53,082 bases of DNA. Origin: Candidatus Poseidoniales archaeon (GTDB lineage Archaea; Thermoplasmatota; Poseidoniia; Poseidoniales; Poseidoniaceae). The stretch covers positions 10,021 to 63,102 of the forward strand of contig QQSC01000005.1 in NCBI GenBank assembly GCA_003602475.1, in the 5' to 3' direction. The notes below the pieces were generated by a model. That model had not been told where the DNA came from, ran no database searches, and was given only the letters and a program-made list of their open reading frames with translations. Of this stretch, positions 1,370 through 48,155 are shown piece by piece. A program made the translations under genes and the position numbers. The stretch's first letter is position 1. Every line of letters starts with the position of its first letter.

Positions 1370-1846
1370 TCATTCCACGGTCGTTGGTCTATCCAGGCCA
1401 ATGCTGGTGACACCGTCTTCGTAAATCACCCAAATTCTGTCAACGCCTGCCAGCGGAATCAGTCCCTCATGAACGCCTCGCCCAGTTCCTGAAATGGGCA
1501 CTTCCATGTCAAGAGGGCCTCCTTCGTCCATGAGAATCACTTCAGTGTCAGTTAATTCGACCCAAAACAAGGATTCGTCAGCTTCAGTAGGTCGCCACAT
1601 CACTTCTTCTGCGTAACTCACGTTACCAAGGCGGCTGGCTTCATCGGCTCGTTCAACCGCCGCTGCGATGTCGTCCATGTTGGCCTGAATCGCCTCCTGA
1701 TTCCATCGCAGTCTGGTGTTTGTTTCAATGTCCCACGCCCAAACGCTGAACATCGTCATCAGCATCACGCCCAGAAGGAACGTGAAAATGTAACCCAGTT
1801 CGGTGGCAGCGGCTTGTACATCTCCGGTGATTCGTCGTCGCCTCAT
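1370..1846 (-). CDS. Small pilin-like protein with class III-type signal peptide
   Basis: MRRRRITGDVQA followed by hydrophobic helix AATELGYIFTFLLGVMLMTMFSVW. ATGA overlap with the upstream gene. Confidence 0.65.
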   Translation of the reverse strand: MRRRRITGDVQAAATELGYIFTFLLGVMLMTMFSVWAWDIETNTRLRWNQEAIQANMDDIAAAVERADEASRLGNVSYAEEVMWRPTEADESLFWVELTDTEVILMDEGGPLDMEVPISGTGRGVHEGLIPLAGVDRIWVIYEDGVTSIGLDRPTTVE

Positions 1847-6004: not shown

Positions 6005-6154
6005 GCTTGGATACCCAGCGCGGGAACCACTTGAACACACCGCCCTGTCGGATGAATAAGCGATGATTTGAAGTCCATTTTCATCAATTCGGATAGGGGT
6101 GTGTATGAACATTGTTCCATCAGCCTCATAAGCAAACTTTCCAAGACACAGAAG

Positions 6155-9100: not shown

Positions 9101-11939
9101 CAACGTTGATTCTGACGGAGATACACTCCCAGACGGGTGGGAATCCAAAGGGTTGTGTTCTTGGGACCCGAGCCGTCAAGGTGTCAATCCGCTGAACGGT
9201 TCTGACGCTTTCCAGAATCCGGACGGTGACGGATACGATGTCAACCGTGATGGAGTTCTTTCTCCCAACGAGTCGTTTGTGAATTATCTTGAGTACCACC
9301 TTAGGAGCGACCTCTTTTTGGGCAACGCCACCCTTGACGGTGTGACACTTCCTGACGGGTTCAACACCTCGTTGTTCAACAACATCGCTGCTCTTGGAGA
9401 ACCTGAAGCCACCTTTGCCGCCCGCGCTTCCGGCTCGGTCACGGCGGGGTTGTCCTCCTACAGTGTTGGCGCATCAGACCCGCTTAGCGCCGACACCGAT
9501 GAGGATGGGATGCCCGATGGTTGGGAAATCTGGTTTGCACGTTGGGACCTCCTTTCCGATGAATGGACCCTCAACCCCCTTGACGCAGCCGATCGCTGGG
9601 GTGATGCTGATCAAGACGGCATGACGAATTGGGAAGAGTACAACACCGTTGACCGCAACATGAGTGAAACGGATGCGAACCGTTCTTCTCCACAATGGTT
9701 CGTGACCACCATTGGTCAGGCATTTGCCATTCAACAATGGCCGGGAATCCCCACTTCTGATTCGTTTGGTACCTTCTTGACCACGGATCAGTACAACTTG
9801 ACGGGTCCAACCTCCGACCCCAACAACATTGACACTGACGGCGATGGCATGCTTGACGGTGTTGAACTGCTCTTTACTGCGTGGAACAGCTCCGCACGCG
9901 TTTGGACCCTCAATCCACTGGTGCCTGGAGACGGCGACTTTGACGGTGATGAAGATGGTCTAACGGACCGTCAGGAATTCGCCATCGCGATCGCACAACC
10001 TGACAACGGTGAATCTCACCCAAGCGATGCTCCGCTTCTTCACATCGATGGAGATTTGCAGCAGCCCACAGAAAAGGCACAACGGGTGTTTAACATCCTC
10101 ATCTCAAAAGAAACGAGAGGGAAGCGACTGTTGAACGATTTCAACAACTGGCAGCAAGGTGAACCTCCCAACGCCTTCCTTGAGGTTGTGCTGGGAATGA
10201 CCGATCCAACCATCGCCGACACGGACAGTGATGGCATGTACGACGGTTTTGAATACTGGTTCACGTCATGGGATTTGGACGAAAATCGCTGGTCGATGAA
10301 CCCGCTCATCGATAACGATGTCAACCTTGATTCCGATGGTGACAGTTATGATTGCAATCGTGACGGTACCGTCGATGCCAATGAGACGTTCTCAAACCTG
10401 CGTGAATGGGAATCAAGGACATGGGGCAAATACCTCAACAGGGACACGGTTCCTTCTGCTTTGGGGATTGTTGATTTCGGAAAAGACGCCATGAACGCCT
10501 ACGCAGAGGAATTGGGATATTCAGCGTTCCAGGCTCAACTTGCCCTTTACAACGACTTCGTAAGTAAGGGAACATCGTCCATGGACAGGATGATGAAAAT
10601 TAACGAGTTCGACAGTGAAAACTTCAACAGAAGCCTCCGAGGAGTTGCCGACCCAACCCACTCTGATTCCGACAACGATGGCATCCCCGACGGCTGGGAA
10701 TACTGCTATGCCATTTTCGGGATGGACGATGCGTCCACCTTGACCCATTGGGCAGCCAATCCAATCAATCCTTGGGATGTTGGATACGATGGTGACCGAG
10801 ATGGTTGGTACGACCGCACACCCTTTGACATTCCTGCAACGCAGGGTGGATGGGACAATCGAGAATTCACCCCCTCAGGCCAAGTCATCCAGAACGGCGA
10901 GGGAGACCTGCCGTTCACCAACGCCATGGAATTTGACAACGACACGCGACCCGACCTCAACGACAGCGATGGAGACAGCACCACATACATCACGACAACC
11001 ATCAACGGCGTGGTTCAATCCCACCTGAGGGATTACAACTATTCCGATGGCCGTGAAGTGTTCAAATACGGTTCAAACCCGAACGACAACGATACAGACG
11101 GTGACATGCTCCCGGATTGGTACGAATACAAAATGGCGTGGAACGAGAGCAACGACAACTTCAGCTCCTATTTGGCGATACAGGTTGTTTTTATCGATGT
11201 TGGGACCGGAGGTCCCTGCACAGCGACCACCGCCTCATGCTTGCCGTTGTCTCAAGGTGGCGGCGGAACGCTCAGTCGCCCCGACCTTGCCATGGCTTGG
11301 TTCACATTGGATCCTGCAGATCCTGCAGATGCCAATCTTGACCCCGACCAAGACGGAAGATGGGATTGTTCTGGTGCAGGAGGCTGCCTCTACGAATCGT
11401 ACACCAATTTCCAAGAGTTTTACGCCATCACGACAAGCGATTATTCATCTCCAAATTCGGTTCGCTTGAGTGGGTTAACCTATCAGGGGTCCCCTGTAAC
11501 GGAAGGTTGGCAATTCCGTGCTTCGTTGCTCGGTCTCGGCCAGACCAACGAATTGGTCCTCAACTATCTCAAACTTGACAAATACGCCGGCATGGACCGC
11601 CAATACGGATACATCGTTGACGATATGGACAGCGATTTCCTTACTGTTGACACCAGCGACGATGTGGTCCTTATGGCTGGCAATCGCACGGACCAATGGG
11701 ACATCTACTACGCCTCGTCACCGAACACACCACCGATTCGCAACGTTGGTGAACACGAATTTGGATGGTACCTCCTCGACTTTGACAACGATCATCTCGC
11801 CGAAGGCAGCAACCCCATGAATTGGGATACGGACGGCGACTGGATGAACGATTGGTTTGAGGTTCGAGACGATGAGGAGGACGGGGTTCGTGGCGATTCA
11901 TCACCGATTCGTTACGACTCTCGACAAACCAGTGCCTGA
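6186..11939 (+). CDS. Giant secreted acidic protein with >20 DxDxDG (thrombospondin type 3-like, Ca-binding) repeats and a central beta-propeller-like region
   Basis: N-terminal basic + hydrophobic signal. Recurrent D[ST]DxDG[MLI]PDGWE...L[DN]P...DA..DxDxDG..N.EE units. Beta-rich middle (HDIRSLDH..LYVTTRYGVSII, LYVGTDRGMLVV, LWFGTPFGLHKM, LLIGSSWGLWAV). Confidence 0.85.
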   Translation: MRRSQTALLTTIAVVSSLLFMSQFPAISSVANIHPDDTDGSPPPNTDSDGDMIPDVHETLFEEWMNWTAVDGRDVVIKGLDKNNASDAYVDLDRDGLNATEEFCWPYPANCTQPGFPRGLTGELDENNDRVYLDPRLSDTDGDGMPDGYEAYMCQRIGGFDTATLRYLCPSFNPLNASDLTLDGDNDGFDVDRDGIMTLSERFTAPEEYAHGTPDTYTPELDGLWCHATLPEGSSLKVWPYIPTGANATFQNLLPACTSNATFPVGEDLWLGTDPLLDDSDRYNWDGFSVRPLYPSFGDGIPDGWEAHFGLDPLNRSNALLDSDQDGWDANRDGFISADLSRTSTAMTLGEALSTLQEYLVHEDGGNTVYPGLKNTELGTDGDVTVHPLIYDSTENDPSVLHHDIRSLDHSNGDLYVTTRYGVSIIDLTENTSRHSSMVQGVDIMASTLLSADGQSYAMVMATSVGMVVSPLQADGQLAEASDWTWALGPKITAMTVLHGTDGDAQLLGLGHAGAGMVVEVDGAGQLSASHDVGTGIVEALAAANASVTALDHGSAAGTTLTLYVGTDRGMLVVDTPSARDEATGLWRFFYTTESVSITANVDELRPLPLGTTGNPAEVRDLVLEGPSENNAQALWFGTPFGLHKMNLNDGTISHSGLLTHPGVDGQLARESNSIRSIHPTGDELLIGSSWGLWAVAGDYTAVYGVQDQTWIPGDITTVLSVDIDGQTTVFAGSSPGQYANLRLMDPGANDSDADGMPDGWEVVHGLDPTDPWDALYDTDSDGLDLDQNGDMNLERLWTNLDEFRYSASTPQGYNSTDPRVGDTDGDGLTDGSEYFGFFYDVSTLWCHYSVQMEYICGDSAGQAANATYLAVANIDASLDPTNHDSDQDGMPDGWEIEHRRWVGSTFSGGNNWTLDPLRADDASWDADGDGLANLCEYQWSIVRDMAANGDLFESHGEASASAALWSVADPNNVDSDGDTLPDGWESKGLCSWDPSRQGVNPLNGSDAFQNPDGDGYDVNRDGVLSPNESFVNYLEYHLRSDLFLGNATLDGVTLPDGFNTSLFNNIAALGEPEATFAARASGSVTAGLSSYSVGASDPLSADTDEDGMPDGWEIWFARWDLLSDEWTLNPLDAADRWGDADQDGMTNWEEYNTVDRNMSETDANRSSPQWFVTTIGQAFAIQQWPGIPTSDSFGTFLTTDQYNLTGPTSDPNNIDTDGDGMLDGVELLFTAWNSSARVWTLNPLVPGDGDFDGDEDGLTDRQEFAIAIAQPDNGESHPSDAPLLHIDGDLQQPTEKAQRVFNILISKETRGKRLLNDFNNWQQGEPPNAFLEVVLGMTDPTIADTDSDGMYDGFEYWFTSWDLDENRWSMNPLIDNDVNLDSDGDSYDCNRDGTVDANETFSNLREWESRTWGKYLNRDTVPSALGIVDFGKDAMNAYAEELGYSAFQAQLALYNDFVSKGTSSMDRMMKINEFDSENFNRSLRGVADPTHSDSDNDGIPDGWEYCYAIFGMDDASTLTHWAANPINPWDVGYDGDRDGWYDRTPFDIPATQGGWDNREFTPSGQVIQNGEGDLPFTNAMEFDNDTRPDLNDSDGDSTTYITTTINGVVQSHLRDYNYSDGREVFKYGSNPNDNDTDGDMLPDWYEYKMAWNESNDNFSSYLAIQVVFIDVGTGGPCTATTASCLPLSQGGGGTLSRPDLAMAWFTLDPADPADANLDPDQDGRWDCSGAGGCLYESYTNFQEFYAITTSDYSSPNSVRLSGLTYQGSPVTEGWQFRASLLGLGQTNELVLNYLKLDKYAGMDRQYGYIVDDMDSDFLTVDTSDDVVLMAGNRTDQWDIYYASSPNTPPIRNVGEHEFGWYLLDFDNDHLAEGSNPMNWDTDGDWMNDWFEVRDDEEDGVRGDSSPIRYDSRQTSA

Positions 11940-12009
11940 ACTGCGCTGGATCGTTTGACTGTGTCGGCGAACCGCATGGTTCAAAGTCTATGTTGACCCT
12001 GTGTCAGTC

Positions 12010-15000
12010 ATGCAGGGTAGCGTACAGCATGCCAACTCGTCGCGAGGCGTTCTCTTCTTGCTCGTTGGCCTGATGTTCTTCGTTCCACTGACACCACTTG
12101 TGGATCACGTTGTTGAATCGGTTGAGGCTGCCGCCGGCACTCGCCACGTCTACGAATTCCATGACGGTTCGGTCGACTACATCGCCCTGTACCAAGGTGC
12201 AAATCCCGACGCAGGGGCCATGGTCTCCCTTCCGCGAGGTGCCGAAGTCACCGACGTCAGTCTCACGCTCTCAGGTGCTTCGGCCACGGGATGGTCCCAG
12301 AGCGTTGCGGACGACCGAATTCATTGGGTCTCCGGTGAAGAGAGCGCTACGGACGACCGCAGCGATGATTTGACTCTAGGACTCGACAACAGCATGGATC
12401 TCTTTCTCCCTCACGGTCAAGACGCTTATGTTGACACCAATTCCGACGCCTGGCTGGACAACGGTTCCTACGCTCTTCGCCAACCTCACACCTCCAACGC
12501 TACCGAAACCCTGTTTTCTCAACAACTCACGAAAACTTCACCCAGCTTCAGTGGTTCCTCGCAAGGTGCTATTTTGAGCCACCATGACTGGTTGTTCCTT
12601 TCAACATGGACGTCGTCGAGTTTCACCAATGTCGTTCATCGCTTGTACCCAAACAACGCCACACGGGAGAGCATCATCACCCTTGACCAAGGGGATTGCA
12701 CCCTCCCTCAGAAGCATCCATCCTCTTACTCGGCCTACTACGGGTTCCGAGACTGGACCGTGACCGATGACGAACGTTTGTTTGGCATCCTCTCTGGCTA
12801 CAGGACGACCCAATCTTCGGCCTCTGTGAACTATCACCGGGTGATGGAAATGGACATCTCAAGGGACGACACGTGGACTTGCATCGATTCCTACGACGTG
12901 TCGCCATCGGTTGGTGAATACACTGGCATTGCTTATGACCGCAACACGAGTGACGTGTGGATCGCTCACAACGCTATGAATCGCCTCTATTCCTATGATT
13001 TCGCTGGCGATGGAACGGGCAGTTACACCCGGAGTTCAGATTTTTACACCTACCAATCCTCTCAAGGTTCAACGTGGGACTGTGGAGGGACGGACGCCAA
13101 CGGTGGCCGTCAAATGCTCCGTGGATTGGAAGTGAACGGTTCCACGTTTTACATGCGTTGTCAAAAGGACTTCTATTACAACGACAAGGACTCGCTTGAA
13201 GCCTGGTCTGTCTCAGGCTCATCGCAAGCCCTCATCCCTGAGACCACCACACGTCAAATTTCCCGATTGGGCCACGGGCTCCAATTCGATGGTGAGCGCT
13301 TCATCACGGTAGACAGTGGCTACAGCACGTGGTCAAGCACCACGCTGTATTACCGAGAATTTGGAACCGGATGGTTGTACGAAACGACACCTTCTCCAGG
13401 AACACATACTTGGTACGGAGAGGTGGTTCGCACCGCTGAGGATATCGTAGCCGCCAACGTTCAGACGTACTGGTCGGCCGCATCCATTGGAGACAGCGTT
13501 GAATATTGGGTTTCTGCAGACAACGGGACCCATTGGGAGCAAGTGACGTCGAATTCGACCATCCACTTTGATTTCCCCGGTAACGAACTGGTGTGGAAGG
13601 CTCAACTCATCGGCTCAACAGCAGTGTCGTGGTGGGTCGACATTGAATACGCTTCAGATTACGTGACTTCGGGTGACTGGACCTCAACCCCGCTCAACAC
13701 GGGCACCAAGGTTGGCAAAGTACGACCTTCATGGACCGCCGACGTGCCAGCAGGTACCGGCGTTCAGGTCTTGGTCTCGAACGACAACGGAACATCGTGG
13801 TTGGAGGCAACCAACAATGCTGAGACCAGTTTCTCCGCAGAGGCAGCAGGCAACACCCTTCGCTACTCCATTCTAATGACAACAACGGACAGCAGAATTA
13901 CACCGAGCATCGATCGTTTCCTGTTGGAATACGAAGAAGGGTACCCGGACAGGCCAATGATTGATGTTGGCTCCGACGGTACATTCGACTGGGAATCGCT
14001 GATGTTCCTTAACGAATCCAGCGTTGTGGCTACAGACGACTCAGAGGTGGGTGTTGTGGTCCGTCGGGCTCCTACTCTTGTGGATGCGTTCAACGACTTT
14101 GTTCCCGATAACGGTGACGGAATGGTGAACGTGCCGTTGTCCATCAAAGCCGCCACCTCAGGACGAATTAAGCTGTCCAACATCGACGTGACCTACGCCA
14201 TGCAAACACGTGCACTTGACGCCACCTTTGAGGGAAGTCGTGCCTCTCCAGATGGCATGTATCGCAATTTCATCACCCGTGTGGCTCCCGGTGATGACGT
14301 TGATTACGTCACTCAAGCCACGGTGTTTATCGACCACACTTACGGGGAAAACCCTGGTTTCACTTGGGAGCGTGGTGACAGCTGTTCTTCAGTCAACGAT
14401 GGTGGTGGAATTGTGCTCTTTGACACCGCCAATTGCACCTCCATGACCGACAGCAACGGCATCGTTTCCATTTGGATGCCGACCAAAGTTAACTGGAGTT
14501 GGAACGATCAACCGGATACTGAAGCGATCATCAGCGTCCAAGACGACCTTGGAATGGCCGTAAACGCATGGACCACCAGCGACATGGATTTGGTGATTGA
14601 AAACGATATTCAACTGGACGGCCTTCGAGTCTGGGAAGAAACCGGACGTCAACTCTACCCCATGGATTGGGTCCGAGGTGGGTTTAACCTGAGTTTCACC
14701 GGGAGAATGGTCTTCCAAGATTCACAACTCATGCCTCCGTCAGGAACCTTTGACCTCCAAATACTGGGTCAAAACGTGACCTTTGACGGTGATGCCATAG
14801 GCGAACCAGAATTGCTCTATCAAGAAGCAAATCCGGCGTTTGGAGATTACAACATCACGTTCATGTCACCCATTGAATCAACACCTGGTGGCATGGTGTT
14901 CTATGTACAAGCGGTCAACCTGGAAAACGGTTCCACCTACACAAACCCCAACTACAACACAATTCGACTTATTTTGGACGGTAATTCGCCTTTGGTGCTC

Positions 15001-17430
15001 GCAGCGACACCCGCCGACGGTGATGAACGCCACGTCGGTGCTGAAGGTGCAGGTCAACCCCTCTCAATCGTCGTTCAAGACACGGTGGACCCCCCCAACC
15101 AGATCAACCTCCATTACTGGGTTGGATGCAATCCGAGTGAAGCCATTGGATGCCACGATTACAACTTTGATGGTTTGCCCAATGAAGACGAGTACGAGAT
15201 GACCACGCTGTCCTCTCCCGAGAGGAGGGCTGGAGGTTTGAACATCTTTGACGGATTGGTCGATGATTCCATGCTGCTTCACAAGCAAAAAGTTTCGTTC
15301 TATGTCTCCGGGTCGGACGGTCAAGACAACGAGATTGCCATGGGCCGGGGTCCGGTTTGCCCCCCCAGCACAATCGCCTGCGGGTACCGCCCAGGTGAGA
15401 CGCTTCCTGACTGGTCAGCTGACTTGGTGACGTATTTTATTCGACAAGAATTTGAGCCCACCATCGATCTCGGCAATTCCACCATCATCGGTCACGATGA
15501 CAACGCACCACTCCACCCAAGTGTCCCCTACACCGTTCAGGTGAAACTCATTGACCAAAACGGTTGGAAGGACATTGAAACGGTACAGATTGCTCTTGGT
15601 GGCGACTTTGCAGACGAAGAATCCTCCATGTTCGTGACCCTTGCAGCTGATGAAAACGGCTTGCCTCAAGCGGTCATGGCTTCCGGCAGCGACAACATCG
15701 CCGTCTCCAATCTGTACTCTACGGTGGAACTTGAAGAAAACGACGACACCGTTGTGTTGATACAGGCCCGCTTCCAATTGACTTGGATGTTCCCAGAATC
15801 CTTTGACACCAACGGAGACAGCACCTTCATTCCCAAAGTTAGGGTCACGGATCAACCCTGCAATGAAGGTGAAGTGATCCCATGTTTCGTTGTGGATGAA
15901 GGATTGGGTGACGACCACTGGAGCCTTGACAATGATTTCAGATTTGATGTTGAGCAAGGGCACATTCGGGCGATAGAATTACGCAACAGCGTGAACCATT
16001 ACACCTCGGAAAATTACGAGTCCATCATTGGAGCAGGTCAAGCCCTACGTGTAACGGGTCGTGTGCTGTTCTCGGAAACCGAAACTCCCGCTCCTGCTGG
16101 TGCGTTTGACGTGGTGTTTGGTGATTATGAGAACAACTGGCGGACCTCCACAAGAGACGATGGCGAGTTCTCCCTTGACCTCCTGGTGCCAGCCGTTCGG
16201 TCTGGGCGTCTTGACTTGCGCCTCAACATGGATGACCTTCCAGGATTGGCACTCGATGAATCTGAATTCCAGCCACGACTTCGACTCGCAGTTGACAACG
16301 ACCGTCCCACCATTGACAGCATCTCCCTCAGCGGTGTTGTTGAGGGCCAGCCTCTTCCCATTGGTCAGGCATCAAATCTTGAAGTGATCCTCATCACCAA
16401 CGATGAAAATGGATTTGATTTGACCGAGCCAGCCGTTTTGCATTATCGTGTCAAGGCCGGAGAATCTGAGATTTCACGTGGCAGTGTGTTGCTCCCCGAC
16501 ATCACACCGTTCGGTCAACAATTTTTCTGGAGCGGCGTGTTGGACTTGACCGATTCAGGAGCCACCACCTTGCTCCCGACATACATCGTCGACGTTTGGG
16601 TCTCGGGGTCGGATGAAGCAGGCAATCCATACGATACCACCTCAAACACCATGGAAAGCGCCTTTGCTTCCTGGCCTCTTTCCTTAACGGGTCCTCGTGT
16701 TGATCTTCAAGACAGCAGCACCGTCCTTTCTTGGGATACACCGAGTCCCTACCAGGGCGATTCGGCCACCATGAACATTCAAACCGACAACCTCGGAGGT
16801 AACGGGCGCGTTGCCTTTGCGCTTCAACGCCTCACAAGCGGTGGGTTTTGGGCTACAGAAGCCAACGTCAGCGTCGATACTCGGACAGGAGAAACCGTGA
16901 GAACGAGTCTATCGGTTCTACCGGATGCAGACATCGGTGATGCAGTGGAATACCGAGTCATCGTGCTGGTCGACGATGTAGAAATGGACCGACAAGTCGT
17001 TCCGTCGCTGTTGGTGAAAGCAGAGACTGTCCGAGACGGAGAAGCACTCTCTCAGCAACTTTCAGAAGACGTGTTCAGTGTTACGTTGTTCCTGGTGGCC
17101 TTGGGTTCGGTCTCCTTCGGAATGTATGCCCTTGTGATGCGCCGTCGTTTACTGGCTCCACCCTCTGAGGAAGAGTTGGTTGACCAAACCGAGGATGTGG
17201 TTGAAGAAATGAACGCCGAGAAGACCGTTCCGACCATCGCTGCGGCAGCACCTCATGCGCCCGCTAACAACGCTCCAGCCACCCCTTCCATGACTGCTCA
17301 GCCTCCTGCTCCAACAGGAAATCGTCAGCAAGCACCGCCCGTTCCACCGACCGGATTACCAGACGGATGGACCGAACAACAGTGGGCTTCTTACGGATGG
17401 CAATACATTGACGCTCTTTCGGGGAAGTGA
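12010..17430 (+). CDS. Giant single-pass cell-surface protein (~1800 aa) with C-terminal TM helix and Pro-rich tail
   Basis: Signal-like N-terminus (RGVLFLLVGLMFFVPL). Beta-rich ectodomain with two Asp-box-like motifs (SADNGTHW, SNDNGTSW). TM VFSVTLFLVALGSVSFGMYALVM followed by RRR. Alternative start GTG 12001. Confidence 0.85.
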   Translation: MQGSVQHANSSRGVLFLLVGLMFFVPLTPLVDHVVESVEAAAGTRHVYEFHDGSVDYIALYQGANPDAGAMVSLPRGAEVTDVSLTLSGASATGWSQSVADDRIHWVSGEESATDDRSDDLTLGLDNSMDLFLPHGQDAYVDTNSDAWLDNGSYALRQPHTSNATETLFSQQLTKTSPSFSGSSQGAILSHHDWLFLSTWTSSSFTNVVHRLYPNNATRESIITLDQGDCTLPQKHPSSYSAYYGFRDWTVTDDERLFGILSGYRTTQSSASVNYHRVMEMDISRDDTWTCIDSYDVSPSVGEYTGIAYDRNTSDVWIAHNAMNRLYSYDFAGDGTGSYTRSSDFYTYQSSQGSTWDCGGTDANGGRQMLRGLEVNGSTFYMRCQKDFYYNDKDSLEAWSVSGSSQALIPETTTRQISRLGHGLQFDGERFITVDSGYSTWSSTTLYYREFGTGWLYETTPSPGTHTWYGEVVRTAEDIVAANVQTYWSAASIGDSVEYWVSADNGTHWEQVTSNSTIHFDFPGNELVWKAQLIGSTAVSWWVDIEYASDYVTSGDWTSTPLNTGTKVGKVRPSWTADVPAGTGVQVLVSNDNGTSWLEATNNAETSFSAEAAGNTLRYSILMTTTDSRITPSIDRFLLEYEEGYPDRPMIDVGSDGTFDWESLMFLNESSVVATDDSEVGVVVRRAPTLVDAFNDFVPDNGDGMVNVPLSIKAATSGRIKLSNIDVTYAMQTRALDATFEGSRASPDGMYRNFITRVAPGDDVDYVTQATVFIDHTYGENPGFTWERGDSCSSVNDGGGIVLFDTANCTSMTDSNGIVSIWMPTKVNWSWNDQPDTEAIISVQDDLGMAVNAWTTSDMDLVIENDIQLDGLRVWEETGRQLYPMDWVRGGFNLSFTGRMVFQDSQLMPPSGTFDLQILGQNVTFDGDAIGEPELLYQEANPAFGDYNITFMSPIESTPGGMVFYVQAVNLENGSTYTNPNYNTIRLILDGNSPLVLAATPADGDERHVGAEGAGQPLSIVVQDTVDPPNQINLHYWVGCNPSEAIGCHDYNFDGLPNEDEYEMTTLSSPERRAGGLNIFDGLVDDSMLLHKQKVSFYVSGSDGQDNEIAMGRGPVCPPSTIACGYRPGETLPDWSADLVTYFIRQEFEPTIDLGNSTIIGHDDNAPLHPSVPYTVQVKLIDQNGWKDIETVQIALGGDFADEESSMFVTLAADENGLPQAVMASGSDNIAVSNLYSTVELEENDDTVVLIQARFQLTWMFPESFDTNGDSTFIPKVRVTDQPCNEGEVIPCFVVDEGLGDDHWSLDNDFRFDVEQGHIRAIELRNSVNHYTSENYESIIGAGQALRVTGRVLFSETETPAPAGAFDVVFGDYENNWRTSTRDDGEFSLDLLVPAVRSGRLDLRLNMDDLPGLALDESEFQPRLRLAVDNDRPTIDSISLSGVVEGQPLPIGQASNLEVILITNDENGFDLTEPAVLHYRVKAGESEISRGSVLLPDITPFGQQFFWSGVLDLTDSGATTLLPTYIVDVWVSGSDEAGNPYDTTSNTMESAFASWPLSLTGPRVDLQDSSTVLSWDTPSPYQGDSATMNIQTDNLGGNGRVAFALQRLTSGGFWATEANVSVDTRTGETVRTSLSVLPDADIGDAVEYRVIVLVDDVEMDRQVVPSLLVKAETVRDGEALSQQLSEDVFSVTLFLVALGSVSFGMYALVMRRRLLAPPSEEELVDQTEDVVEEMNAEKTVPTIAAAAPHAPANNAPATPSMTAQPPAPTGNRQQAPPVPPTGLPDGWTEQQWASYGWQYIDALSGK

Positions 17431-21764: not shown

Positions 21765-21810
21765 CACACCACCCCAATAGATACATGAAGGCACGGTGAA
21801 AGCCTACCTT

Positions 21811-22725
21811 ATGGGAGATGCTCGGTACCAAACCGCTCGGGGTTTGGCTCTTCTTCCACTGATTCTGATGGGTGCTTTGCACTTGACAGTGCCTCCGTTG
21901 TCGGGTACGTTTGAACTTGAACCGCTGTTGATGGTGCTGTGGTACGCTGTGGCGTTGGTGTTGGGGCTTGTCCTCTTTCGAAAAACTCGCGTCGTGAAGG
22001 ATCATGAGTACAACAGAGCGAAAGCCATGCGCTCCATTCGACACGTGTACAAAGCCGAAGCAGAAGGCGTTTGGGAACGAGATGTGCCGCTTGATGGTCA
22101 ACTCGCAGGTAGCTCCAACTTGGCCTTTGGCCAAACCGTTGGTTCTCTCGCCCCGGAAACCGATGAAATCGAATTGGACAACGATTCCAAGGTTGAAGTC
22201 AAGGTGTTGACGGGGACCGTTGGTGTGATTTCCTCAAATGCCACCACTGAGTATGACGATGCACCTGTTGTGCAGCGAACCTTAGGCGCACAAACCAAGG
22301 AAGGACCAATGGACAGAATATTGGACAAGGTGTTTGGTTGGTTTGGGCGTGACACCAAGGCTGAACGAGATGCCCAACGACAGGCGAGAATGCTCGAGAA
22401 CGCACGAGCGGCTCCCGTCATCGCTCAACGACCCGTAGCGCCTCTTCGCCTCAACACGAGGGACGATGATGGAGAGGTCCAGATGACTTCGATGAGCGAC
22501 ACTGGGGGCGTTGAAACCGTGTTGACCTCCAGGGGTTCTGAAGTTTCGAATGAAATGCTCCCGGATGATTCCGGTGCTTCACTTCCCATGACGCTTGAAC
22601 AAATGGCTCAACTCCAACCCGTGACCACCTCGTCATCCTCCTCTCAAGTTCCTGCGTGCAGAGGGTGCGGTGGAACTGCTCCGGCCGGAACTGCATATTG
22701 CCCTCATTGCGGTTTGGACCTTTGA
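21811..22725 (+). CDS. Membrane protein with C-terminal zinc ribbon
   Basis: Two N-terminal TM segments. C-terminal CRGC-x10-CPHCG. Alternative start GTG 21796. Confidence 0.75.
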   Translation: MGDARYQTARGLALLPLILMGALHLTVPPLSGTFELEPLLMVLWYAVALVLGLVLFRKTRVVKDHEYNRAKAMRSIRHVYKAEAEGVWERDVPLDGQLAGSSNLAFGQTVGSLAPETDEIELDNDSKVEVKVLTGTVGVISSNATTEYDDAPVVQRTLGAQTKEGPMDRILDKVFGWFGRDTKAERDAQRQARMLENARAAPVIAQRPVAPLRLNTRDDDGEVQMTSMSDTGGVETVLTSRGSEVSNEMLPDDSGASLPMTLEQMAQLQPVTTSSSSSQVPACRGCGGTAPAGTAYCPHCGLDL

Positions 22726-43169: not shown

Positions 43170-46100
43170 ATGCGTTCTCAGTCCACCTTGTGGCTTGTGT
43201 TGTGGCTGATGGTGACCCTCCCGCTCACGGGAATGGCTCAGCCTTCCTCCACAGGCCATGATTTCGATGTGAATGAACAGGCATCAGAGGCCATGGCGGT
43301 TTCGGAGGAGGAGCGTTTGGCAAGAGCAGCTTCACGTTGGAGTTTACTTCCCCAACCTCAGGTGTTGGCTGGCGACGTCGCCAACTCGACAGGCACGATC
43401 CATTTGGCAGCGGGTTCGTTTGACCCCCTTCTTGGAGAAGGGCCCGAAGTCCCCAAAGGCTTTGATCGTCAAAACGACGGGTTGACCACTGGACTGGCCA
43501 TCGTTCAACTTCATGCACCCAACGGTGATGTCATGGAAGAGCTCGCTAAAAATCACGGTTTGAAAGTGTTGGACGTTTTGCATGACGCAGCATGGCTGGT
43601 TCGTTTGCCATCGCCTCCAGCATTGGCCATCGATGGTCTTCAGGTCAGCGAACTGGTCAGGTGGGTCGGTCATCAGCAACCAGGATGGCGGCTTGCGCCC
43701 ATGCTTCACGAAACTTGGGATGAGGTTGACGCCTTGACCGTCGTCCCAACTCCGGATTTGGCCGTTGGAGGGTACGAATCCCTTGCTCGAGATGCTGTTC
43801 GATACGGCGCAGATGATGCATGGTGTGATGCTTGGCTCTGTCGCCTCTCCGTGGACCACACACGTAGCGATGACCTGTTGTTGCACTTGGTCCGTGATGG
43901 TCGTGTGATGTGGGTTGAACCTTCTGCACCAATGGTGCCTCACAACGCCGTGGCATGGACCATTGCTGGCGTGGCGGATGTTTCCAGCAACGCCACCTTC
44001 TCGCTCGACGGTTCTGGCGAAATGATTGCTATTGCGGACACGGGATTGGATCAGAACCATCCCGACCTCACCGGACGTGTGGCAGGTGTGGTGACCCAAT
44101 ACGGGTTGGACTCTTCACCTGCCGATTCCAATTCAGGACACGGCACACACGTGGCGATTACCGTGGTTGGCAACGGCACAGGAGATGCTTCTGCACGAGG
44201 CGTAGCTCCGGCTGCGAACTTGGTCATGTATGCACTGGAATACGACCCTACGGGGGCATTTGGCCGAATCGGCTCGATCTACGACATGTTGCGCGACGCT
44301 GAGCAGTTAACCGCACGTATTGCTGTGAATGCTTGGGGCTTGAACGGGAACTACGGTCAATACACCGCCGATGCTCGCTCGGTCGACATTTTCGTTCGTG
44401 ACCGTTCGGACGTGACGCCGGTGTTTTCGGTGGGGGACCGTGGAACCTTGGGGGCGTCCCAAATTACCTCACCGGCAACCGCCAAAAACGTGATCGCCGT
44501 AGGTGCGTCCACAACCGGAGTCGGCGGAACGGCCGCTGCAGGCAGCGTAGCGAACTTTTCATCTCAGGGACCGGCTTTGGACGGTCGGATCAAACCGGAT
44601 GTCGTTGCGCCGGGTGTTGGGATTTGTTCAGGACTTGCTGAGGAGGCTCAGTATCCGGCCGGCCCAGATTGTCTTTCCGGCTCCCACAGCAGCGGCAACG
44701 CCTACTACATGTCGCTCTCAGGAACATCTCAAGCCACGGCTGTCGCCTCCGGCATCACTGCATTGACCAGAGAGTTCATCCGTGAACAAGTGGGTGTCAA
44801 CGCCCCAAGCAGTGCTCTGGTCAAAGCCGCTGTCATCAACGGGGCTGAAGACTTGGGAACGCCCGACATCCCCAACGCCATGGAGGGGTGGGGTCAAGTT
44901 GACCTCGAACGGACCTTGATGCCCATGAACGGGGCACAAGCGCTCGACACGTTTTTGGGCGACGCTACAACACTCAATCCCGGCTATTCACTCTTGTATT
45001 CTTTCGATCTCAACCCTTCCCACGGGGTGGACATCACCCTCGCATGGACGGACGCTGCAGGCAGTGCAAACGGCCCTCAAAACACCCCTCGGTTGGTGAA
45101 CGATCTCGACGTGACCCTCATCAGTCCCAGTGGTGACGAATGGCACGGTAACGTGTTCTCAAACGGCTTTTCTGTCACCGGAGGGACCGCCGACACCGTC
45201 AACAACGTCGAGCGCATTCGCATTGACGCAGGGACGTTGCCTGATTTGTCGGGAGACTGGACGGTCCAAATTGACCACAAAGAAGGTTCATCCCAGCGCT
45301 TTGGCTTGGTGGTGACGGCCGTCGCTTCCCCCACACCACAGTCCGATTTGGCGGTGTTCAACGAAAGCATTGTCTTGTCTTCGGTCGAACCCCTGCTCAA
45401 CGACCTGATTTCCATTCGACTTGCTTGGGTGAATCAAGGAACAAGCACCACACCGGGTTTTGACATTCTTGTGGAAGACCTGACCACCAACGAAACCCTC
45501 ACCACTTCCACTCGAAGCGGTTTGACTTCTGGGGCGTTGGATTCGTTTACCATTTTCCATCAATTCACCACCACTGGGTTGCACCGCTTACGGCTGTCCG
45601 TTGACACCACAAACGGCGTGACAGAACTCAACGACGCCACAAACGGTGTCAACAACAACATTTGGGAACAAGACATCATCGTACGAGCTCTCGGTGTTCG
45701 TGTCGTGGTCAACAATGCAGACGGGACCGTGCCGCAAACAGCCGAAGAGCGAGAAGACAACGCGATTTTCACGCTCGACGTTGCGAACGAGTCAGGTTTT
45801 GACATTCCGTTGTCTGTGTTGCACGAAGGTACTGGCAACCAATCGGTCACCATCTCATCGACCACGGTTCAGGTTCCTGCGGAGGGGAGGCCAAATTTCT
45901 TCCTTCCAAGCGAAGATGCATGGTCACGAACATTCAACGAAACAACGGAATTCCTCTTGACCCCTCAAGGCACCGATGACGCCAACAAAACCTTGGACTT
46001 GAGATTGGAAGATTTGGACGCAGATTTCACCACCTCTCCCGAAAACCCACGCTTCGTTCGTGCGGGTACCTATGTCGTTGAAATCACCGCTCGTTACGAA

Positions 46101-48155
46101 TTCCAGCCGTCTGTTGCCCACACACAGCGAATCATGTTGATCGTCCCCCAGGTCGACCAAGTACAGGTGGTGGCGGCAGGGACGGCTGGGCTGGAAGCGC
46201 AACCGGGCAGCTCCAGCTTTTTCTCCATCTCGGTTCGTAACACCGGGAATGCTCCAGCCCAATACAGCGTTGAATGCGAATCTCAAAACCGCTGGCAATT
46301 GATGCTTGGTGGATCAAATTCGTCACGGCTTGATTTCGAACCACTGAACATTCTCGAATTTCTCCCCATGTCAATACGAATCATTGTCCCCCTTGTGGCC
46401 AATGGGATGCCTGCAGCAGGGGATGTTGACAGCGTCACCTGTTACGTCACCTCGGCCACAGACCCCTTGATGAATTTCACAGAAACCGTATCCATTGTCG
46501 TATTGCCTCAGGAGTCCTTCACCGTCGACGTCTACGACGATGACGGTCCGCTTGGTCCGAGTCAACTCGCAGACGATATTTCGGTGGATTCTGGGCAGCG
46601 GTATCATCTCAACGTCTCGGTCGAGAACACGGGCAACATTGCGGTCGACCTCGAAGTCTCAGCTCTTCCGGACAATCCACAATGGGCCATGAGAGTGTTC
46701 TATGGGGGCGAAGAGGACAACCGACGGGTGAGATTCACCCTGCAGCCAGGCGAGACCACTCGTGTTGAGTTGCTCTTTGCGGTTCCCATCACTGCAGAAG
46801 AAGACGATTTCAACGTTTACACGATCAGAACCGAACGCAGCGTTCAGAATTTTGTACAAAACACCACACGTTTGGTGGTGCGTGAGGAGCTCGACATTCG
46901 ACTCGACGGCCCTGAAGACGAAACCGTCGGTGTGAATGTTTCAGAATCGTATTCATACGGTGTGTTTGAGGTTCAAAACACCGGTAACGTCCCGTTGAAT
47001 CTGGCATGGACTCACGGCCTTGTGCCAGACGGGTGGACCGTTGGTTTCGCAAACCCCACAGTTTACCTTGAACCAAGGGAATCTCGAACCGTACGGCTTG
47101 GATTGGTGCCTCCGGCCCAAACCCCTGCTGGGCCCCAAGATTTTTCTGTGCTCGTCGTCGTCAATGCCTCCAATGCCGGACGATTCATTGAAGCGTCGAT
47201 GAACGTCGATGTCGAGGTCGCTTCAACCATGTTTGCGAATTTGAGTGCGGCTGGCACGACCAACCCGTTCACGGGTGTTTCTCGCAACGATGAGGCTCAG
47301 CAAACATTCAGTGTGCGCAACGACGGTAACGTCGTTCTCAGTGGCATCGTACTCGAGGCCGTTTTGGTGGACGGTTCGGGTGTTGAACGCTCGGATTGGT
47401 CCGTGTCCTTGTCGGCTGACGATCTCAATGGCCTTGGTGTCGGTGAGGTCCGAGAGGTCGTTCTGACGTTGACACCTTCAGGAGATGCCAACCGAGCACC
47501 GGCTACCCTTTACGTCAACTTAAGCAACGACGAAGGTGTGTTGGTAACGTTTGAATCCAAAGCTTCCGTTGAATCAGCGACGGGAGACGACGGTTTGTTC
47601 GCCACCTTGCCTCCAGCGGTCAGCGTAGCCTTGACCCTCGTGATCTTGCTCGGCTTGATCGTTGGTGCCCGTCGGCTCAAGCAGACCGGCACCATTGCTG
47701 AGGACGGTTTGGAACTCGTGGCGCCCAACACACACGCACGCCCAGATCATCTTGGTGAACGAAGGGATGAAGTCTTGGACATCAGCAGTGCCATTAACGA
47801 CATTGCCAGCGGTGAAGTGAGCGATGATGAAATCGCTGCAGCCATCATGCAATCAATGGACCTCCCTGCAACGCCAGTGGCTCCACCAAGCGGCCTACCG
47901 CCTTCTGGTATGCCTCCTGCCGGCATGCCCCCAGCAGGGATGCCTCCAGCAGGGATGCCTCCTGCTGGCCTGCCACCATCGGCGCTTCCAGCCCTCAAGC
48001 AACTCCCCAGCCTACCAGCCGTCGCTCCGCCATCATCTGTTCTGCCAGCCGTCCCACCCGGGCCACCGTTGCCACCCAGCGGTTTACCTCCCGGTTGGAC
48101 CATGGACCAATGGCGACATTACGGTGAAGAATGGCTTCGTCGCCAGCAGGGCTGA
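43170..48155 (+). CDS. Membrane-anchored S8 (subtilisin-like) serine protease with CARDB/Ig-like domains
   Basis: Triad motifs IADTGLD, GHGTHVA, SGTSQAT; KPDVVAPG; NDLDV..NNVE domain; SDLAV..VDTTNGVTEL CARDB-like; V.NTGN Ig repeats; TM; Pro-rich tail. Confidence 0.95.
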   Translation: MRSQSTLWLVLWLMVTLPLTGMAQPSSTGHDFDVNEQASEAMAVSEEERLARAASRWSLLPQPQVLAGDVANSTGTIHLAAGSFDPLLGEGPEVPKGFDRQNDGLTTGLAIVQLHAPNGDVMEELAKNHGLKVLDVLHDAAWLVRLPSPPALAIDGLQVSELVRWVGHQQPGWRLAPMLHETWDEVDALTVVPTPDLAVGGYESLARDAVRYGADDAWCDAWLCRLSVDHTRSDDLLLHLVRDGRVMWVEPSAPMVPHNAVAWTIAGVADVSSNATFSLDGSGEMIAIADTGLDQNHPDLTGRVAGVVTQYGLDSSPADSNSGHGTHVAITVVGNGTGDASARGVAPAANLVMYALEYDPTGAFGRIGSIYDMLRDAEQLTARIAVNAWGLNGNYGQYTADARSVDIFVRDRSDVTPVFSVGDRGTLGASQITSPATAKNVIAVGASTTGVGGTAAAGSVANFSSQGPALDGRIKPDVVAPGVGICSGLAEEAQYPAGPDCLSGSHSSGNAYYMSLSGTSQATAVASGITALTREFIREQVGVNAPSSALVKAAVINGAEDLGTPDIPNAMEGWGQVDLERTLMPMNGAQALDTFLGDATTLNPGYSLLYSFDLNPSHGVDITLAWTDAAGSANGPQNTPRLVNDLDVTLISPSGDEWHGNVFSNGFSVTGGTADTVNNVERIRIDAGTLPDLSGDWTVQIDHKEGSSQRFGLVVTAVASPTPQSDLAVFNESIVLSSVEPLLNDLISIRLAWVNQGTSTTPGFDILVEDLTTNETLTTSTRSGLTSGALDSFTIFHQFTTTGLHRLRLSVDTTNGVTELNDATNGVNNNIWEQDIIVRALGVRVVVNNADGTVPQTAEEREDNAIFTLDVANESGFDIPLSVLHEGTGNQSVTISSTTVQVPAEGRPNFFLPSEDAWSRTFNETTEFLLTPQGTDDANKTLDLRLEDLDADFTTSPENPRFVRAGTYVVEITARYEFQPSVAHTQRIMLIVPQVDQVQVVAAGTAGLEAQPGSSSFFSISVRNTGNAPAQYSVECESQNRWQLMLGGSNSSRLDFEPLNILEFLPMSIRIIVPLVANGMPAAGDVDSVTCYVTSATDPLMNFTETVSIVVLPQESFTVDVYDDDGPLGPSQLADDISVDSGQRYHLNVSVENTGNIAVDLEVSALPDNPQWAMRVFYGGEEDNRRVRFTLQPGETTRVELLFAVPITAEEDDFNVYTIRTERSVQNFVQNTTRLVVREELDIRLDGPEDETVGVNVSESYSYGVFEVQNTGNVPLNLAWTHGLVPDGWTVGFANPTVYLEPRESRTVRLGLVPPAQTPAGPQDFSVLVVVNASNAGRFIEASMNVDVEVASTMFANLSAAGTTNPFTGVSRNDEAQQTFSVRNDGNVVLSGIVLEAVLVDGSGVERSDWSVSLSADDLNGLGVGEVREVVLTLTPSGDANRAPATLYVNLSNDEGVLVTFESKASVESATGDDGLFATLPPAVSVALTLVILLGLIVGARRLKQTGTIAEDGLELVAPNTHARPDHLGERRDEVLDISSAINDIASGEVSDDEIAAAIMQSMDLPATPVAPPSGLPPSGMPPAGMPPAGMPPAGMPPAGLPPSALPALKQLPSLPAVAPPSSVLPAVPPGPPLPPSGLPPGWTMDQWRHYGEEWLRRQQG
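47892..47981 (+). repeat. Six imperfect 15-nt tandem units encoding G[LM]PP[SA]
   Basis: ggcctaccgccttct ggtatgcctcctgcc ggcatgcccccagca gggatgcctccagca gggatgcctcctgct ggcctgccaccatcg. Confidence 0.9.

What the first reader, a model, noticed from the sequence alone, without database searches (positions are those of the whole stretch)
17335..17430. Shared C-terminal tag PPxPPxGLPxGWTxxQWxxYG on unrelated giant surface proteins: candidate sorting/docking system
Seen: the ~1800-aa protein ends PPVPPTGLPDGWTEQQWASYGWQYI and the S8 protease, 30 kb away, ends PPLPPSGLPPGWTMDQWRHYGEEWL (48063-48155). 14 of the first 21 positions are identical. Both have the architecture signal peptide - ectodomain - one TM - basic residues - acidic/Pro-rich linker - motif at the extreme C-terminus, while their ectodomains show no evident similarity. 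Known: it differs from archaeosortase PGF-CTERM and LPXTG signals, which lie before the TM helix. LPxGW recalls the start of a WW domain, but the rest does not match. Inference: a mobile cytoplasmic mini-domain that recruits diverse surface enzymes and adhesins to a common intracellular partner (localisation, export or clustering). I do not know a characterised family for it.
Basis: partly seen in the sequence, partly recalled or inferred. Interest (0 to 1): 0.85.

Follow-up and report, generated by a model that had tools for sequence, protein, structure and literature searches.

The report
Shared cytoplasmic tail tag, MGII archaea
A strongly conserved 30-residue peptide sits at the inner, cytoplasmic end of many otherwise unrelated giant surface proteins of Marine Group II archaea, matches no described family, and probably ties these surface enzymes and adhesins to a common, still unidentified, partner inside the cell.

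Summary
Both window proteins end in xPP(L/V)PxxGLPxGWT(M)(E/D)QWxxYGxx(W/Y)(L/I). The same tag ends 9 large single-pass proteins in this genome.

- **Distribution:** it was found in all 77 sampled genomes of the window's order. Record titles name the order as Poseidoniales, Marine Group II. It was not found in 45 genomes of the sister lineages of the class. Only 5 of 203 out-of-order phylum genomes hit, all marginally.
- **Position:** it always follows one transmembrane helix, a basic cluster and a 50-148 aa linker. It usually lies 19-22 residues from the stop.
- **Selection:** synonymous sites among paralogous tags are scrambled, so the peptide itself is under selection.
- **Carriers:** at least 10 ectodomain families carry it, including the S8 protease.
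- **Known families:** Pfam, NCBIfam, PDB sequences, fold libraries and the literature gave no family.
- **Structure:** AlphaFold2 predicts a Pro-rich arm followed by an aromatic helix.

The best reading is a cytoplasmic docking mini-domain, but no partner was found. The window's TPR protein and a second tail module are missing from many tag-bearing genomes.

The parts
12001..17430 (+). Gene for a 1809-aa tagged single-pass surface protein with an ectodomain of no known family
   Evidence: ORF and translation. No Pfam or NCBIfam family. A hydrophobic N-terminal segment and a single C-terminal TM-like segment.
17080..17148 (+). TM-like helix VTLFLVALGSVSFGMYALV (residues 1694-1712) followed by MRRR
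   Evidence: Kyte-Doolittle scan. Across 110 tagged proteins, K+R counts are 34 in the 15 aa before the TM and 265 in the 15 aa after it. This places the tail in the cytoplasm by the positive-inside rule (established knowledge).
17149..17334 (+). Acidic then Ala/Pro-rich linker of 62 residues between the TM and the tag
   Evidence: Translation. In 79 related loci the linker is 50-148 aa, median 72, and is not conserved in sequence.
17335..17409 (+). Tag core PPVPPTGLPDGWTEQQWASYGWQYI. Six more residues (17410-17427) and the stop (17428-17430) follow.
   Evidence: HMM hit with E 1.2e-17.
43170..48155 (+). Gene for a 1661-aa tagged subtilase (Peptidase_S8 at residues 281-575, CARDB at 726-827)
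   Evidence: Orthologues of about 1600-1700 aa carry the tag in both families of the order, including the small f3 genomes.
47607..47663 (+). TM-like helix LPPAVSVALTLVILLGLIV (residues 1480-1498), followed by GARRLKQ
47889..47990 (+). Pro-rich repeats in the linker (GLPPSGMPPAGMPPAGMPPAGMPPAGLPPSALP)
   Evidence: The coordinates are approximate and read from the ruler.
48063..48137 (+). Tag core PPLPPSGLPPGWTMDQWRHYGEEWL. Five more residues and the stop (48153-48155) follow.
   Evidence: HMM hit with E 2.1e-18. The AlphaFold2 model was built on this copy.

Best explanation
The motif is a lineage-specific cytoplasmic mini-domain of about 30 residues. I call it the GW-helix tag: xPP(L/V/I)PxxGLPxGWTM(E/D)QWx(H/Y/W)YG(Q/E)(Q/E)(W/Y)L.

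It hangs on a flexible acidic/Pro-rich tether at the C-terminal, intracellular end of a defined subset of single-pass (type I) surface proteins of Marine Group II archaea (Poseidoniales).

**Shown**
- Its position, topology and distribution.
- Purifying selection on the peptide.
- The diversity of the proteins that carry it.

**Predicted**
- A short proline-rich arm followed by one aromatic helix.

**Inferred**
- The folded or fold-on-binding module is a docking epitope. One common cytoplasmic or cortical factor recognises it, which couples the secreted-side enzymes and adhesins (subtilase, PKD/CARDB, LamG/PA14, propeller-like and unknown ectodomains) to the cell interior.
- The purpose would be positioning, clustering or turnover.
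- The factor itself is not identified.
For: 1. **Recurrence.** The tag is on 9 proteins in this genome. It occurs 1-12 times per genome in 31 of 31 relatives. In the class sample it was found in f1 49/49 and f3 26/26. f2 gave 2/2.
2. **Restriction.** It was not found in f4 (0/43) or f5 (0/2) of the same class. Five of 203 out-of-order phylum genomes hit, all at marginal E values of 0.001-0.008. A scan of one genome per species across prokaryotes gave 479 confirmed hits. Of the 80 best record titles, 54 name Poseidoniales-group taxa, 25 carry generic euryarchaeal names and 1 a bacterial label. No viral contig hit.
3. **Breadth.** 646 clusters at 50% identity match at E<=1e-3, out of 1.84 billion representatives.
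4. **Position.** GW lies 17-24 residues from the end in 116 of the 150 best representatives and in 53 of 80 genome loci. In 79 of 80 loci a TM-like segment lies 50-148 aa upstream. K+R counts are 34 before and 265 after the TM in 110 proteins.
5. **Selection.** Among the 8 paralogous tags, identical degenerate residues share the codon in only 144 of 390 comparisons. Ectodomains are unrelated except one pair. 97 carriers fall into 10 ectodomain clusters.
6. **Conservation on all faces.** Besides the columns fixed by my selection regex, P-10, P-9, L-8, P-7, G-4, L-3, T2, M3, E4, Y9, G10, W/Y13 and L14 are near-invariant in 112 tails. Polar positions 11 and 12 are Q or E. Only position 7 of the helix is free. 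This fits a specifically recognised epitope better than a generic amphipathic helix (inference).
7. **Structure.** AlphaFold2 on 24 tails gives mean pLDDT 79.6. It predicts a helix at residues 20-35 and a non-regular Pro-rich arm whose block pLDDT is about 84.
8. **Tether.** The long, variable, acidic tether suits reach into the cytoplasm (inference).
Against: - No partner was found. Genes flanking the 9 tagged genes share no recurrent family.
- The window's TPR protein (f1 44/49, f3 9/26) is absent from many genomes that keep the tag. So is the Trp-rich beta tail module (f1 49/49, f3 9/26).
- MIT and Snf7 families were not found in this genome.
- The fold rests on one AlphaFold2 model of a 36-residue peptide. 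I could not inspect its coordinates, so packing of the Pro arm on the helix is not verified.
- Signal peptides and TM helices come from my own hydropathy scripts.
- Nothing shows that the tail stays attached in the mature protein.
Confidence: 0.5

Rival explanations
1. Self-association module. The aromatic helices of different tagged proteins pair with each other, or with related GW-helix tails, beneath the membrane. This would cluster the tagged surface proteins without a separate partner.
For: - A conserved Gly lies in the middle of the aromatic face (Y9-G10).
- Some tails in the same genome carry two GW-helix units in tandem. Examples are the 1781-aa protein on contig C8 and the tails on C13, C24 and C20.
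- Profile comparison of the tag with the three tandem tails gives E 5e-4 at 32% probability. It gives 90% probability only when the C8 copy, itself tag-like, is included.
Against: - The polar helix positions and the Pro arm are conserved too, which a simple zipper does not require.
- The link to the tandem tails is weak without the C8 sequence.
Confidence: 0.15
2. In-plane membrane anchor. The Trp/Tyr-rich amphipathic helix lies in the cytoplasmic membrane interface and stabilises or orients the single TM anchor of very large ectodomains.
For: - The predicted helix is rich in W, Y and L.
- Interfacial Trp/Tyr preference is established knowledge.
Against: - The tag is separated from the TM by 50-148 mostly acidic residues.
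- Nearly every helix position is conserved, including T, E, Q, Q/E and Q/E, and an invariant PPxPxxGLPxG arm precedes it. Lipid binding alone would not demand this.
- A quarter to a third of copies carry a further 25-70 residues after the helix.
Confidence: 0.1
3. Turnover or trafficking signal. The exposed C-terminal module is read by a cytoplasmic protease, unfoldase or vesicle-forming machinery. This would control the lifetime, shedding or vesicle loading of the tagged surface proteins.
For: - The near-terminal position is strongly preferred.
- All 27 extended copies examined end in a second terminal motif, LLDDLD(F/L). This suggests that free C-terminal ends matter in these tails.
Against: - No MIT or Snf7 (ESCRT) family was found in this 88.75%-complete genome.
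- A 25-residue epitope conserved on all faces is much more than known C-terminal degrons need (my recall of ssrA-type tags).
- This rival also needs an unidentified reader, so it differs from the best explanation only in outcome.
Confidence: 0.15
4. Ligand of other tail modules. The PPLP arm is bound by the Trp-rich beta module that ends other surface proteins and a soluble acidic protein, or by the Zn-ribbon/TPR protein of the window. This would build a tail-to-tail network.
For: - Both candidate modules are restricted to the same order.
- The TPR gene lies 4-6 kb downstream of the tagged subtilase gene in many genomes of both families. I compared the coordinates.
- Pro-rich arms are classical ligands of small beta modules and of TPRs (established knowledge).
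Against: - Both candidates were found in only 9 of 26 f3 genomes, while the tag is in 26 of 26.
- Five small f3 genomes showed neither candidate, even at E<=10.
- Profile comparison of the tag with the beta module shows no relation.
Confidence: 0.07
5. Chance resemblance, or a recent one-off recombination between two genes of this genome.
For: None after testing.
Against: - 8 regex hits against 2 hits in 50 shuffles.
- Order-wide presence.
- Scrambled synonymous sites, with 144 of 390 codons shared.
Confidence: 0.01

Closest known systems
PGF-CTERM / archaeosortase and other C-terminal sorting tags (LPXTG, PEP-CTERM, MYXO-CTERM)
   Same: A short, lineage-wide C-terminal signature shared by many otherwise unrelated surface proteins of one proteome, with several to a dozen carriers per genome.
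   Different: - Those tags put the signature directly before the TM helix. They end in a short basic tail and are cut by a sortase-type enzyme (recalled; abstracts of PMC11980579 and PMC1569441 seen in the listing).
- Here the signature lies 50-148 residues after the TM, on the cytoplasmic side.
- No exosortase-family match was found in the genome. That is a weak test, because the control did not ring in Haloferax.
WW domain
   Same: The stretch GLPxGW equals the start of many WW domains. WW domains of Salvador and Itch are the only PDB sequences that the tag profile touches.
   Different: - Those hits have E 0.035-0.55 and cover little more than LPxGW.
- No Pfam hit at E<=10, and no PF00397 match anywhere in the genome.
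- The conserved Trp residues are 5 apart, not about 20.
- The protein ends about 20 residues after the first Trp.
- AlphaFold2 predicts a helix, not a three-stranded sheet.
Miniproteins made of a polyproline arm packed on a helix (pancreatic-polypeptide fold, Trp-cage). Recalled, not tested.
   Same: About 30 residues, with spaced prolines, Gly turns and a helix whose conserved face is aromatic. Conservation covers nearly all positions, as expected if most residues form a tiny core.
   Different: - No sequence or fold match was obtained.
- Packing of the arm on the helix could not be inspected.
- Those miniproteins are hormones or designs, not membrane-protein tails.
Cytoplasmic tails of eukaryotic surface-protein families (integrin or cadherin tails, the conserved tail of Giardia VSPs, Trichomonas BspA tails). 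Recalled; only titles and abstracts seen in the listings.
   Same: Type I topology. A variable ectodomain is joined to one TM and a short conserved cytoplasmic motif that is read by intracellular machinery.

Membership tests
WW domain (PF00397) | Significant match to the family profile | tested here: not met
   - 0 Pfam families at E<=10 for both 33-aa tails.
- No PF00397 match in the whole genome at E<=1.
- PDB WW chains hit only at E 0.035-0.55.
WW domain (PF00397) | Two signature Trp about 20-23 residues apart with a Pro after the second, in a three-stranded sheet (recalled definition) | tested here: not met
   - The invariant Trp residues are 5 apart.
- The chain usually ends 19-22 residues after GW.
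- The AlphaFold2 model is helical over residues 20-35 (a prediction only).
PGF-CTERM / archaeosortase substrates | Signature motif immediately N-terminal to the C-terminal TM helix, followed only by a short basic tail (recalled definition) | tested here: not met
   The motif follows the TM by 50-148 residues in 79 of 80 loci. This also holds in all 9 proteins of this genome.
PGF-CTERM / archaeosortase substrates | An archaeosortase/exosortase gene in the genome | tested here: inconclusive
   PF09721 was not found in the 88.75%-complete genome. The control rang only in Methanocaldococcus and not in Haloferax, so the model is insensitive.
LPXTG sortase signal | LPXTG before a hydrophobic segment and a basic end (recalled definition) | tested here: not met
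   No LPXTG lies before the TM in the two window proteins. The conserved motif is on the other side of the TM.
MIT-interacting motifs of ESCRT-III type | A MIT-domain reader and Snf7-family proteins in the same genome | tested here: not met
   PF04212 and PF03357 were not found at E<=0.1 in this genome, which is 88.75% complete.
C-terminal peptide ligand of the neighbouring TPR protein (window 51301-52872) | Co-occurrence of reader and tag across genomes | tested here: not met
   The TPR domain was found in f1 44/49 and f3 9/26 at E<=1e-5. It was not found in five small f3 genomes, where the only match at E<=10 had E 4.4. The tag was found in f1 49/49 and f3 26/26.
Polyproline-arm/helix miniprotein fold | Pro residues of the arm interdigitate with aromatic residues of the helix | not testable with these tools
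   Only secondary structure and pLDDT are returned. Fold searches gave nothing above Z 2.8, with Foldseek E around 9.

The most novel reading that the evidence does not exclude
Marine Group II archaea run a eukaryote-like 'cytoplasmic tail code'.

- About 80 single-pass surface proteins per genome end inside the cell in interchangeable small modules.
- The modules are the universal GW-helix tag, a single propeller-blade-like Trp-rich beta module, zinc ribbons, tandem GW helices, SAP-like stretches and an acidic LLDDLD(F/L) end.
- Together they would wire the surface proteome to a cortical scaffold or to the nucleoid.
- The GW-helix tag would be the one module kept by every member of the order. 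It would mark the core set (subtilase plus two or three others) that must be positioned or clustered together for particle and protein degradation.
Probability: 0.25. Interest if true: 0.85.

Novelty: new variant of a known kind. Interest (0 to 1): 0.62.

Why it matters
Marine Group II archaea are among the most abundant archaea of the surface ocean and remain uncultured. [quoted passage not shown]

- **A definable set of surface proteins.** A 37-column profile now picks out a conserved subset of that surface proteome in any MGII genome or metagenome. The sets are 1-8 proteins in family f3 and 6-12 in f1.
- **A link inside the cell.** The tag shows that these proteins share something on the inside of the cell.
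- **An experimental handle.** The tag gives a bait peptide for an organism that cannot be grown.
- **A taxonomic marker.** It is also a sharp peptide marker for the order.

Tried and rejected
**Family and fold searches that gave nothing**
- Pfam and NCBIfam on the tails and on whole proteins gave no family for the tail.
- The word-based homologue search with the 50-residue tail mostly returned orthologues of the subtilase and a TSP3-bearing group, so I dropped it in favour of profile searches.
- The ESM Atlas look-alike search returned only unnamed clusters scoring under 0.9.
- Foldseek against PDB gave E about 9, and the wide VIA search gave a best Z of 2.8. Such tiny models are poorly searchable, so this does not show that the fold is new.

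**Literature**
- The four motif strings occur in 0 papers.
- 'Poseidoniales' plus 'cytoplasmic tail' occurs in 0 papers.
- Three broader searches listed nothing relevant.
- Passages on adhesion, transmembrane and C-terminal in PMC4511931 and PMC6336850 mention no such motif.
- Supplements were not seen. Subscription papers on MGII genomes are outside the library.

**Partner hunt**
- The flanks of the 9 tagged genes share no family.
- The TPR protein and the Trp-rich beta module fail co-occurrence.
- MIT and Snf7 were not found.
- A profile comparison of the tag with the beta module found nothing.
- Complex prediction with two copies of the tag returned 'no answer' (score 0.01, mark 0.42). This is no evidence either way.

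**Expression and other checks**
- Sequencing runs: no RNA holder was listed. Runs of marine metagenomes from 8 studies hold the stretch, but I did not lay reads.
- A 111-aa open frame with the tag in G023 turned out to be the shifted end of a 1162-aa gene.
- I first called the beta module 'WW-like'. I withdraw that, because its model resembles single propeller blades and no WW domain is among the 50 best rows.
Full report
**1. What is in the window**

- ORF 12001-17430 (+) encodes 1809 residues and ends ...QAPPVPPTGLPDGWTEQQWASYGWQYIDALSGK.
- ORF 43170-48155 (+) encodes 1661 residues and ends ...GPPLPPSGLPPGWTMDQWRHYGEEWLRRQQG.
- The coordinates in the finding (17335-17430 and 48063-48155) start exactly on the first Pro codon of each motif and end on the stop. 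Fourteen of the first 21 residues are identical.
- The second protein is a subtilase: Peptidase_S8 E 8e-44, plus CARDB. The first has no Pfam or NCBIfam family.
- Both have a hydrophobic N-terminus, one strongly hydrophobic segment 100-160 residues before the end, basic residues right after it, an acidic/Pro-rich stretch and then the motif. These segments come from my own hydropathy scan, not from a dedicated predictor.

**2. It is not a two-gene coincidence**

- The window is G000:C45:10021-63102 in a 1.95-Mb assembly of 53 contigs.
- A six-frame regex scan found 8 strict copies, all in open frames of 838-1823 residues. In seven of them GW lies 18-21 residues from the stop. In the eighth it lies 82 residues from the stop.
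- A ninth protein (contig C8, 1781 aa) carries two degenerate copies in tandem.
- Fifty shuffles of the translated frames gave 2 hits in all.
- All nine proteins show the same architecture.
- Their ectodomains differ. They include S8+CARDB, a propeller-like stretch, TSP3/NHL, CARDB/Ig-like, PKD+CARDB, LamG+PA14, and two with no family at all.
- Only one of the 36 ectodomain pairs shares BLASTP similarity.
- Within the 25-codon core, residues that are identical and degenerate use the same codon in only 144 of 390 paralogue comparisons. The peptide has therefore been held by selection for a long time and was not copied recently.

**3. Distribution**

- A profile of the nine tails hit every one of 31 related genomes: three families, ten genera, 1-11 hits each, E 1e-14 to 1e-20.
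- In a class-wide sample it hit f1 49/49 and f3 26/26, but f4 0/43 and f5 0/2. Per genome, f1 has 6-12 hits and f3 has 1-8.
- A broader profile (24 tails, alignment A2) was run over 251 genomes of the phylum. It hit f1 30/30 and f3 17/17. Only 5 of the 203 genomes outside the order hit, all at E 0.001-0.008, which is the level of noise.
- A pattern scan of one genome per prokaryotic species gave at least 598 pattern matches, of which 479 were confirmed. Of the 80 best records, 54 are titled Poseidoniales, Poseidoniaceae, Poseidonia or Thalassarchaeaceae. Another 25 carry generic euryarchaeal names, and one is labelled Verrucomicrobiales, probably a mis-binned contig.
- The window therefore comes from Marine Group II, and the tag is a signature of that order.
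- Viral contigs gave nothing.
- In the library of 1.84 billion representatives, 646 clusters match at E<=1e-3 and 392 at E<=1e-10. Most are short gene fragments from metagenomes.

**4. Anatomy**

- In 24 loci from both families, GW lies 19-22 residues from the stop in 21.
- Among the 150 best representatives, it lies 17-24 residues from the end in 116.
- Among 80 named loci, this holds in 53.
- The other copies continue for 25-70 residues. All 27 such tails in the named loci end in LLDDLD(F/L) or a close variant, as does the contig C53 protein of this genome.
- In 79 of 80 loci a TM-like segment lies upstream, separated by 50-148 residues (median 72).
- Over 110 proteins, the 15 residues before the TM hold 34 Lys+Arg and the 15 after it hold 265. 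By the positive-inside rule the tail is cytoplasmic.
- In 112 tails the following positions are near-invariant: P-10, P-9, L/V/I-8, P-7, G-4, L-3, T2, M3, E/D4, Y9, G10, W/Y13 and L14. Positions 8 (H/Y/W), 11 and 12 (Q/E) are restricted. Only position 7 within the helix is free.
- The selection regex for that set fixed P-2, G0, W1, Q/E5 and W/Y/F6. These columns are also invariant in alignment A2, though its loci were picked with the same GW...[QE][WYF] core.
- The 97 carriers with enough upstream sequence fall into 10 ectodomain clusters.

**5. Structure**

- AlphaFold2 on alignment A2 gives mean pLDDT 79.6 and pTM 0.47. It predicts a helix over residues 20-35 (MDQWRHYGEEWLRRQQ). The preceding PLPPSGLPPGWT is non-regular but confident, with a block pLDDT of about 84.
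- The conservation pattern (W1, Q5, Y9, W/Y13 and T2, W6, G10, L14 as two adjacent stripes) fits a helix and not a hairpin. This is my reading.
- The arrangement recalls polyproline-arm/helix miniproteins. That is recall only, and I could not inspect coordinates.
- Fold searches were uninformative.

**6. Known families**

- No Pfam or NCBIfam model touches the tail, even at E<=10.
- The tag profile touches only WW domains in the PDB, at E 0.035-0.55 and over little more than LPxGW. PF00397 finds nothing in the genome.
- The topology excludes PGF-CTERM, LPXTG and similar tags, whose signature precedes the TM.
- Text searches found no description. Two MGII genomics papers mention adhesion domains but no tail motif in the passages I saw.

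**7. Mechanism**

The tag has these properties:
- It is cytoplasmic and tethered by a long, variable, acidic/Pro-rich linker.
- It is near-terminal.
- It is conserved on every face, including polar positions.
- It is shared by unrelated ectodomains.

The simplest reading is a docking epitope for one common intracellular reader. It would link the subtilase and several adhesin-like proteins for positioning, clustering or turnover. This step is inference.

- Neighbours of tagged genes share no family.
- The window's Zn-ribbon/TPR protein (51301-52872) is specific to the order and often lies 4-6 kb downstream of the tagged subtilase gene. It is found in only 9 of 26 f3 genomes, and not in five small ones even at E<=10.
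- MIT and Snf7 families are not found.

Rivals remain open: self-association, interfacial membrane binding, a turnover or vesicle signal, and a tail-to-tail network. The single complex job returned no verdict and is reported only under Tried and rejected.

**8. Context found on the way**

My crude gene call lists 83 type-I-like proteins in this genome, of which 9 carry the tag. Other tails end in other recurrent modules:
- **Trp-rich beta module.** A module of about 35 residues ends 8 membrane proteins and one soluble acidic 248-aa protein. It is predicted at pLDDT 91.2 as a four-stranded meander. It most resembles single propeller blades: Foldseek E about 1, TM 0.72-0.79, rmsd 1.2-1.6 A over 32-36 columns. 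It is found in f1 49/49, f3 9/26 and f4 0/43.
- **Tandem GW helices**.
- **Zinc ribbons**.
- **The acidic LLDDLD(F/L) end**, also present on the window's 814-aa protein at 34951-37395 (-).

The GW-helix tag is the only one of these modules seen in every genome of the order that I sampled.

**9. Verdict**

The tag is real, cytoplasmic, shuffled among carriers, lineage-wide and undescribed. The partner is still hypothetical.

Noticed in passing
G000 contigs C7:28368-32675, C48:3060-12233, C48:12243-14840, C50:113254-117456, C53:33322-40656, C6:14507-18604, C1:3941-8230, C46:115-2517, C28:21593-22339: A second cytoplasmic tail module of about 35 residues (consensus ..DEDGTEWWEDEDGxWWYRxEGxEDWxPY) lies at the extreme C-terminus of 8 large membrane proteins and of one soluble, very acidic 248-aa protein.
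- AlphaFold2 gives pLDDT 91.2 and four short strands.
- The best Foldseek rows are single propeller blades (Pizza designs, PknD) at E about 1. No WW domain is among the 50 best rows.
- It has no Pfam or PDB sequence match.
- Distribution: f1 49/49, f3 9/26, f4 0/43.
- Single blades that assemble into a ring would be a way to cluster tails. This is speculation.
   Followed up: partly
window 34951-37395 (-); G000 C53:8371-12090; loci L076-L145 (27 of them): A third tail signal, an acidic-hydrophobic extreme C-terminus ...LLDDLD(F/L).
- It ends all 27 extended GW-helix tails examined.
- Without a GW-helix, it also ends the window's 814-aa single-pass protein (...PPIWQDDDLDF).
- Only these two proteins of the genome end this way.
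   Followed up: partly
window 51301-52872 (+): A soluble 523-aa protein with an N-terminal CxxC...CxxC zinc ribbon, a long Pro-rich spacer and a C-terminal TPR domain.
- It is specific to the order (f1 44/49, f3 9/26, f4 0/43).
- It lies 4-6 kb downstream of the tagged subtilase gene in many genomes (one search compared).
- Its f3 genera (g3, g4, g9, g17, g18) are exactly those that keep the Trp-rich beta module.
   Followed up: partly
G000 C13:1-2712, C24:17289-22181, C20:13474-19305, C8:110511-115856: Tails with two GW-helix-like units in tandem (for example VPGWTEAMVKEYMLQGWTMAQLIDYYNEEV). Their profile relation to the tag is weak: E 5e-4 at 32% probability without the C8 copy.
   Followed up: partly
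G000 C3:12683-15241, C3:20639-25174, C39:22-2277, C48:30505-34626, C53:10-4575, C35:4134-5243; window 21796-22725 (+): Membrane proteins whose C-terminal ends carry CxxC...CxxC zinc-ribbon-like motifs. Two further tails, on C8:63921-66524 and C9:7992-10484, look like winged-helix DNA-binding domains by eye. None of this was tested.
   Followed up: no
proteins P0089, P0149; locus L009: SAP-like stretches (for example LTVSELKQRLRDAGKKVSGKKAELIARLLE) sit next to the GW-helix tag in some cytoplasmic tails. The SAP label is my recall and was not tested.
   Followed up: no
G000 C46:15269-18760 and loci L003, L006, L007, L012, L017, L018, L021: A conserved linker motif, (D)xVANSMYGGAxxIFxxP, lies between the TM and the tag in one orthologous group.
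   Followed up: no
window 6186-11939 (+) and 1843-6112 (-): The 1917-aa protein upstream of the first tagged gene is full of Asp-rich calcium-binding-type repeats (weak TSP3_bac) and has no C-terminal TM or tag. Three divergently oriented genes begin like archaeal pilin-type proteins. One of them gives a sub-threshold DUF7289 match at E 3.6e-5.
   Followed up: no
locus L078 (record titled Verrucomicrobiales bacterium ARS100): A contig filed under a bacterial MAG encodes a typical tagged protein with the LLDDLDF end. It is probably a mis-binned MGII contig.
   Followed up: no
L149 (G023:C4:63500-69500): The tag of one f3 gene lies in a different frame from the 1162-aa body of the gene (ORFs 1412-4900 and 4653-4976). 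This is either a frameshift or an assembly error at the tail.
   Followed up: partly
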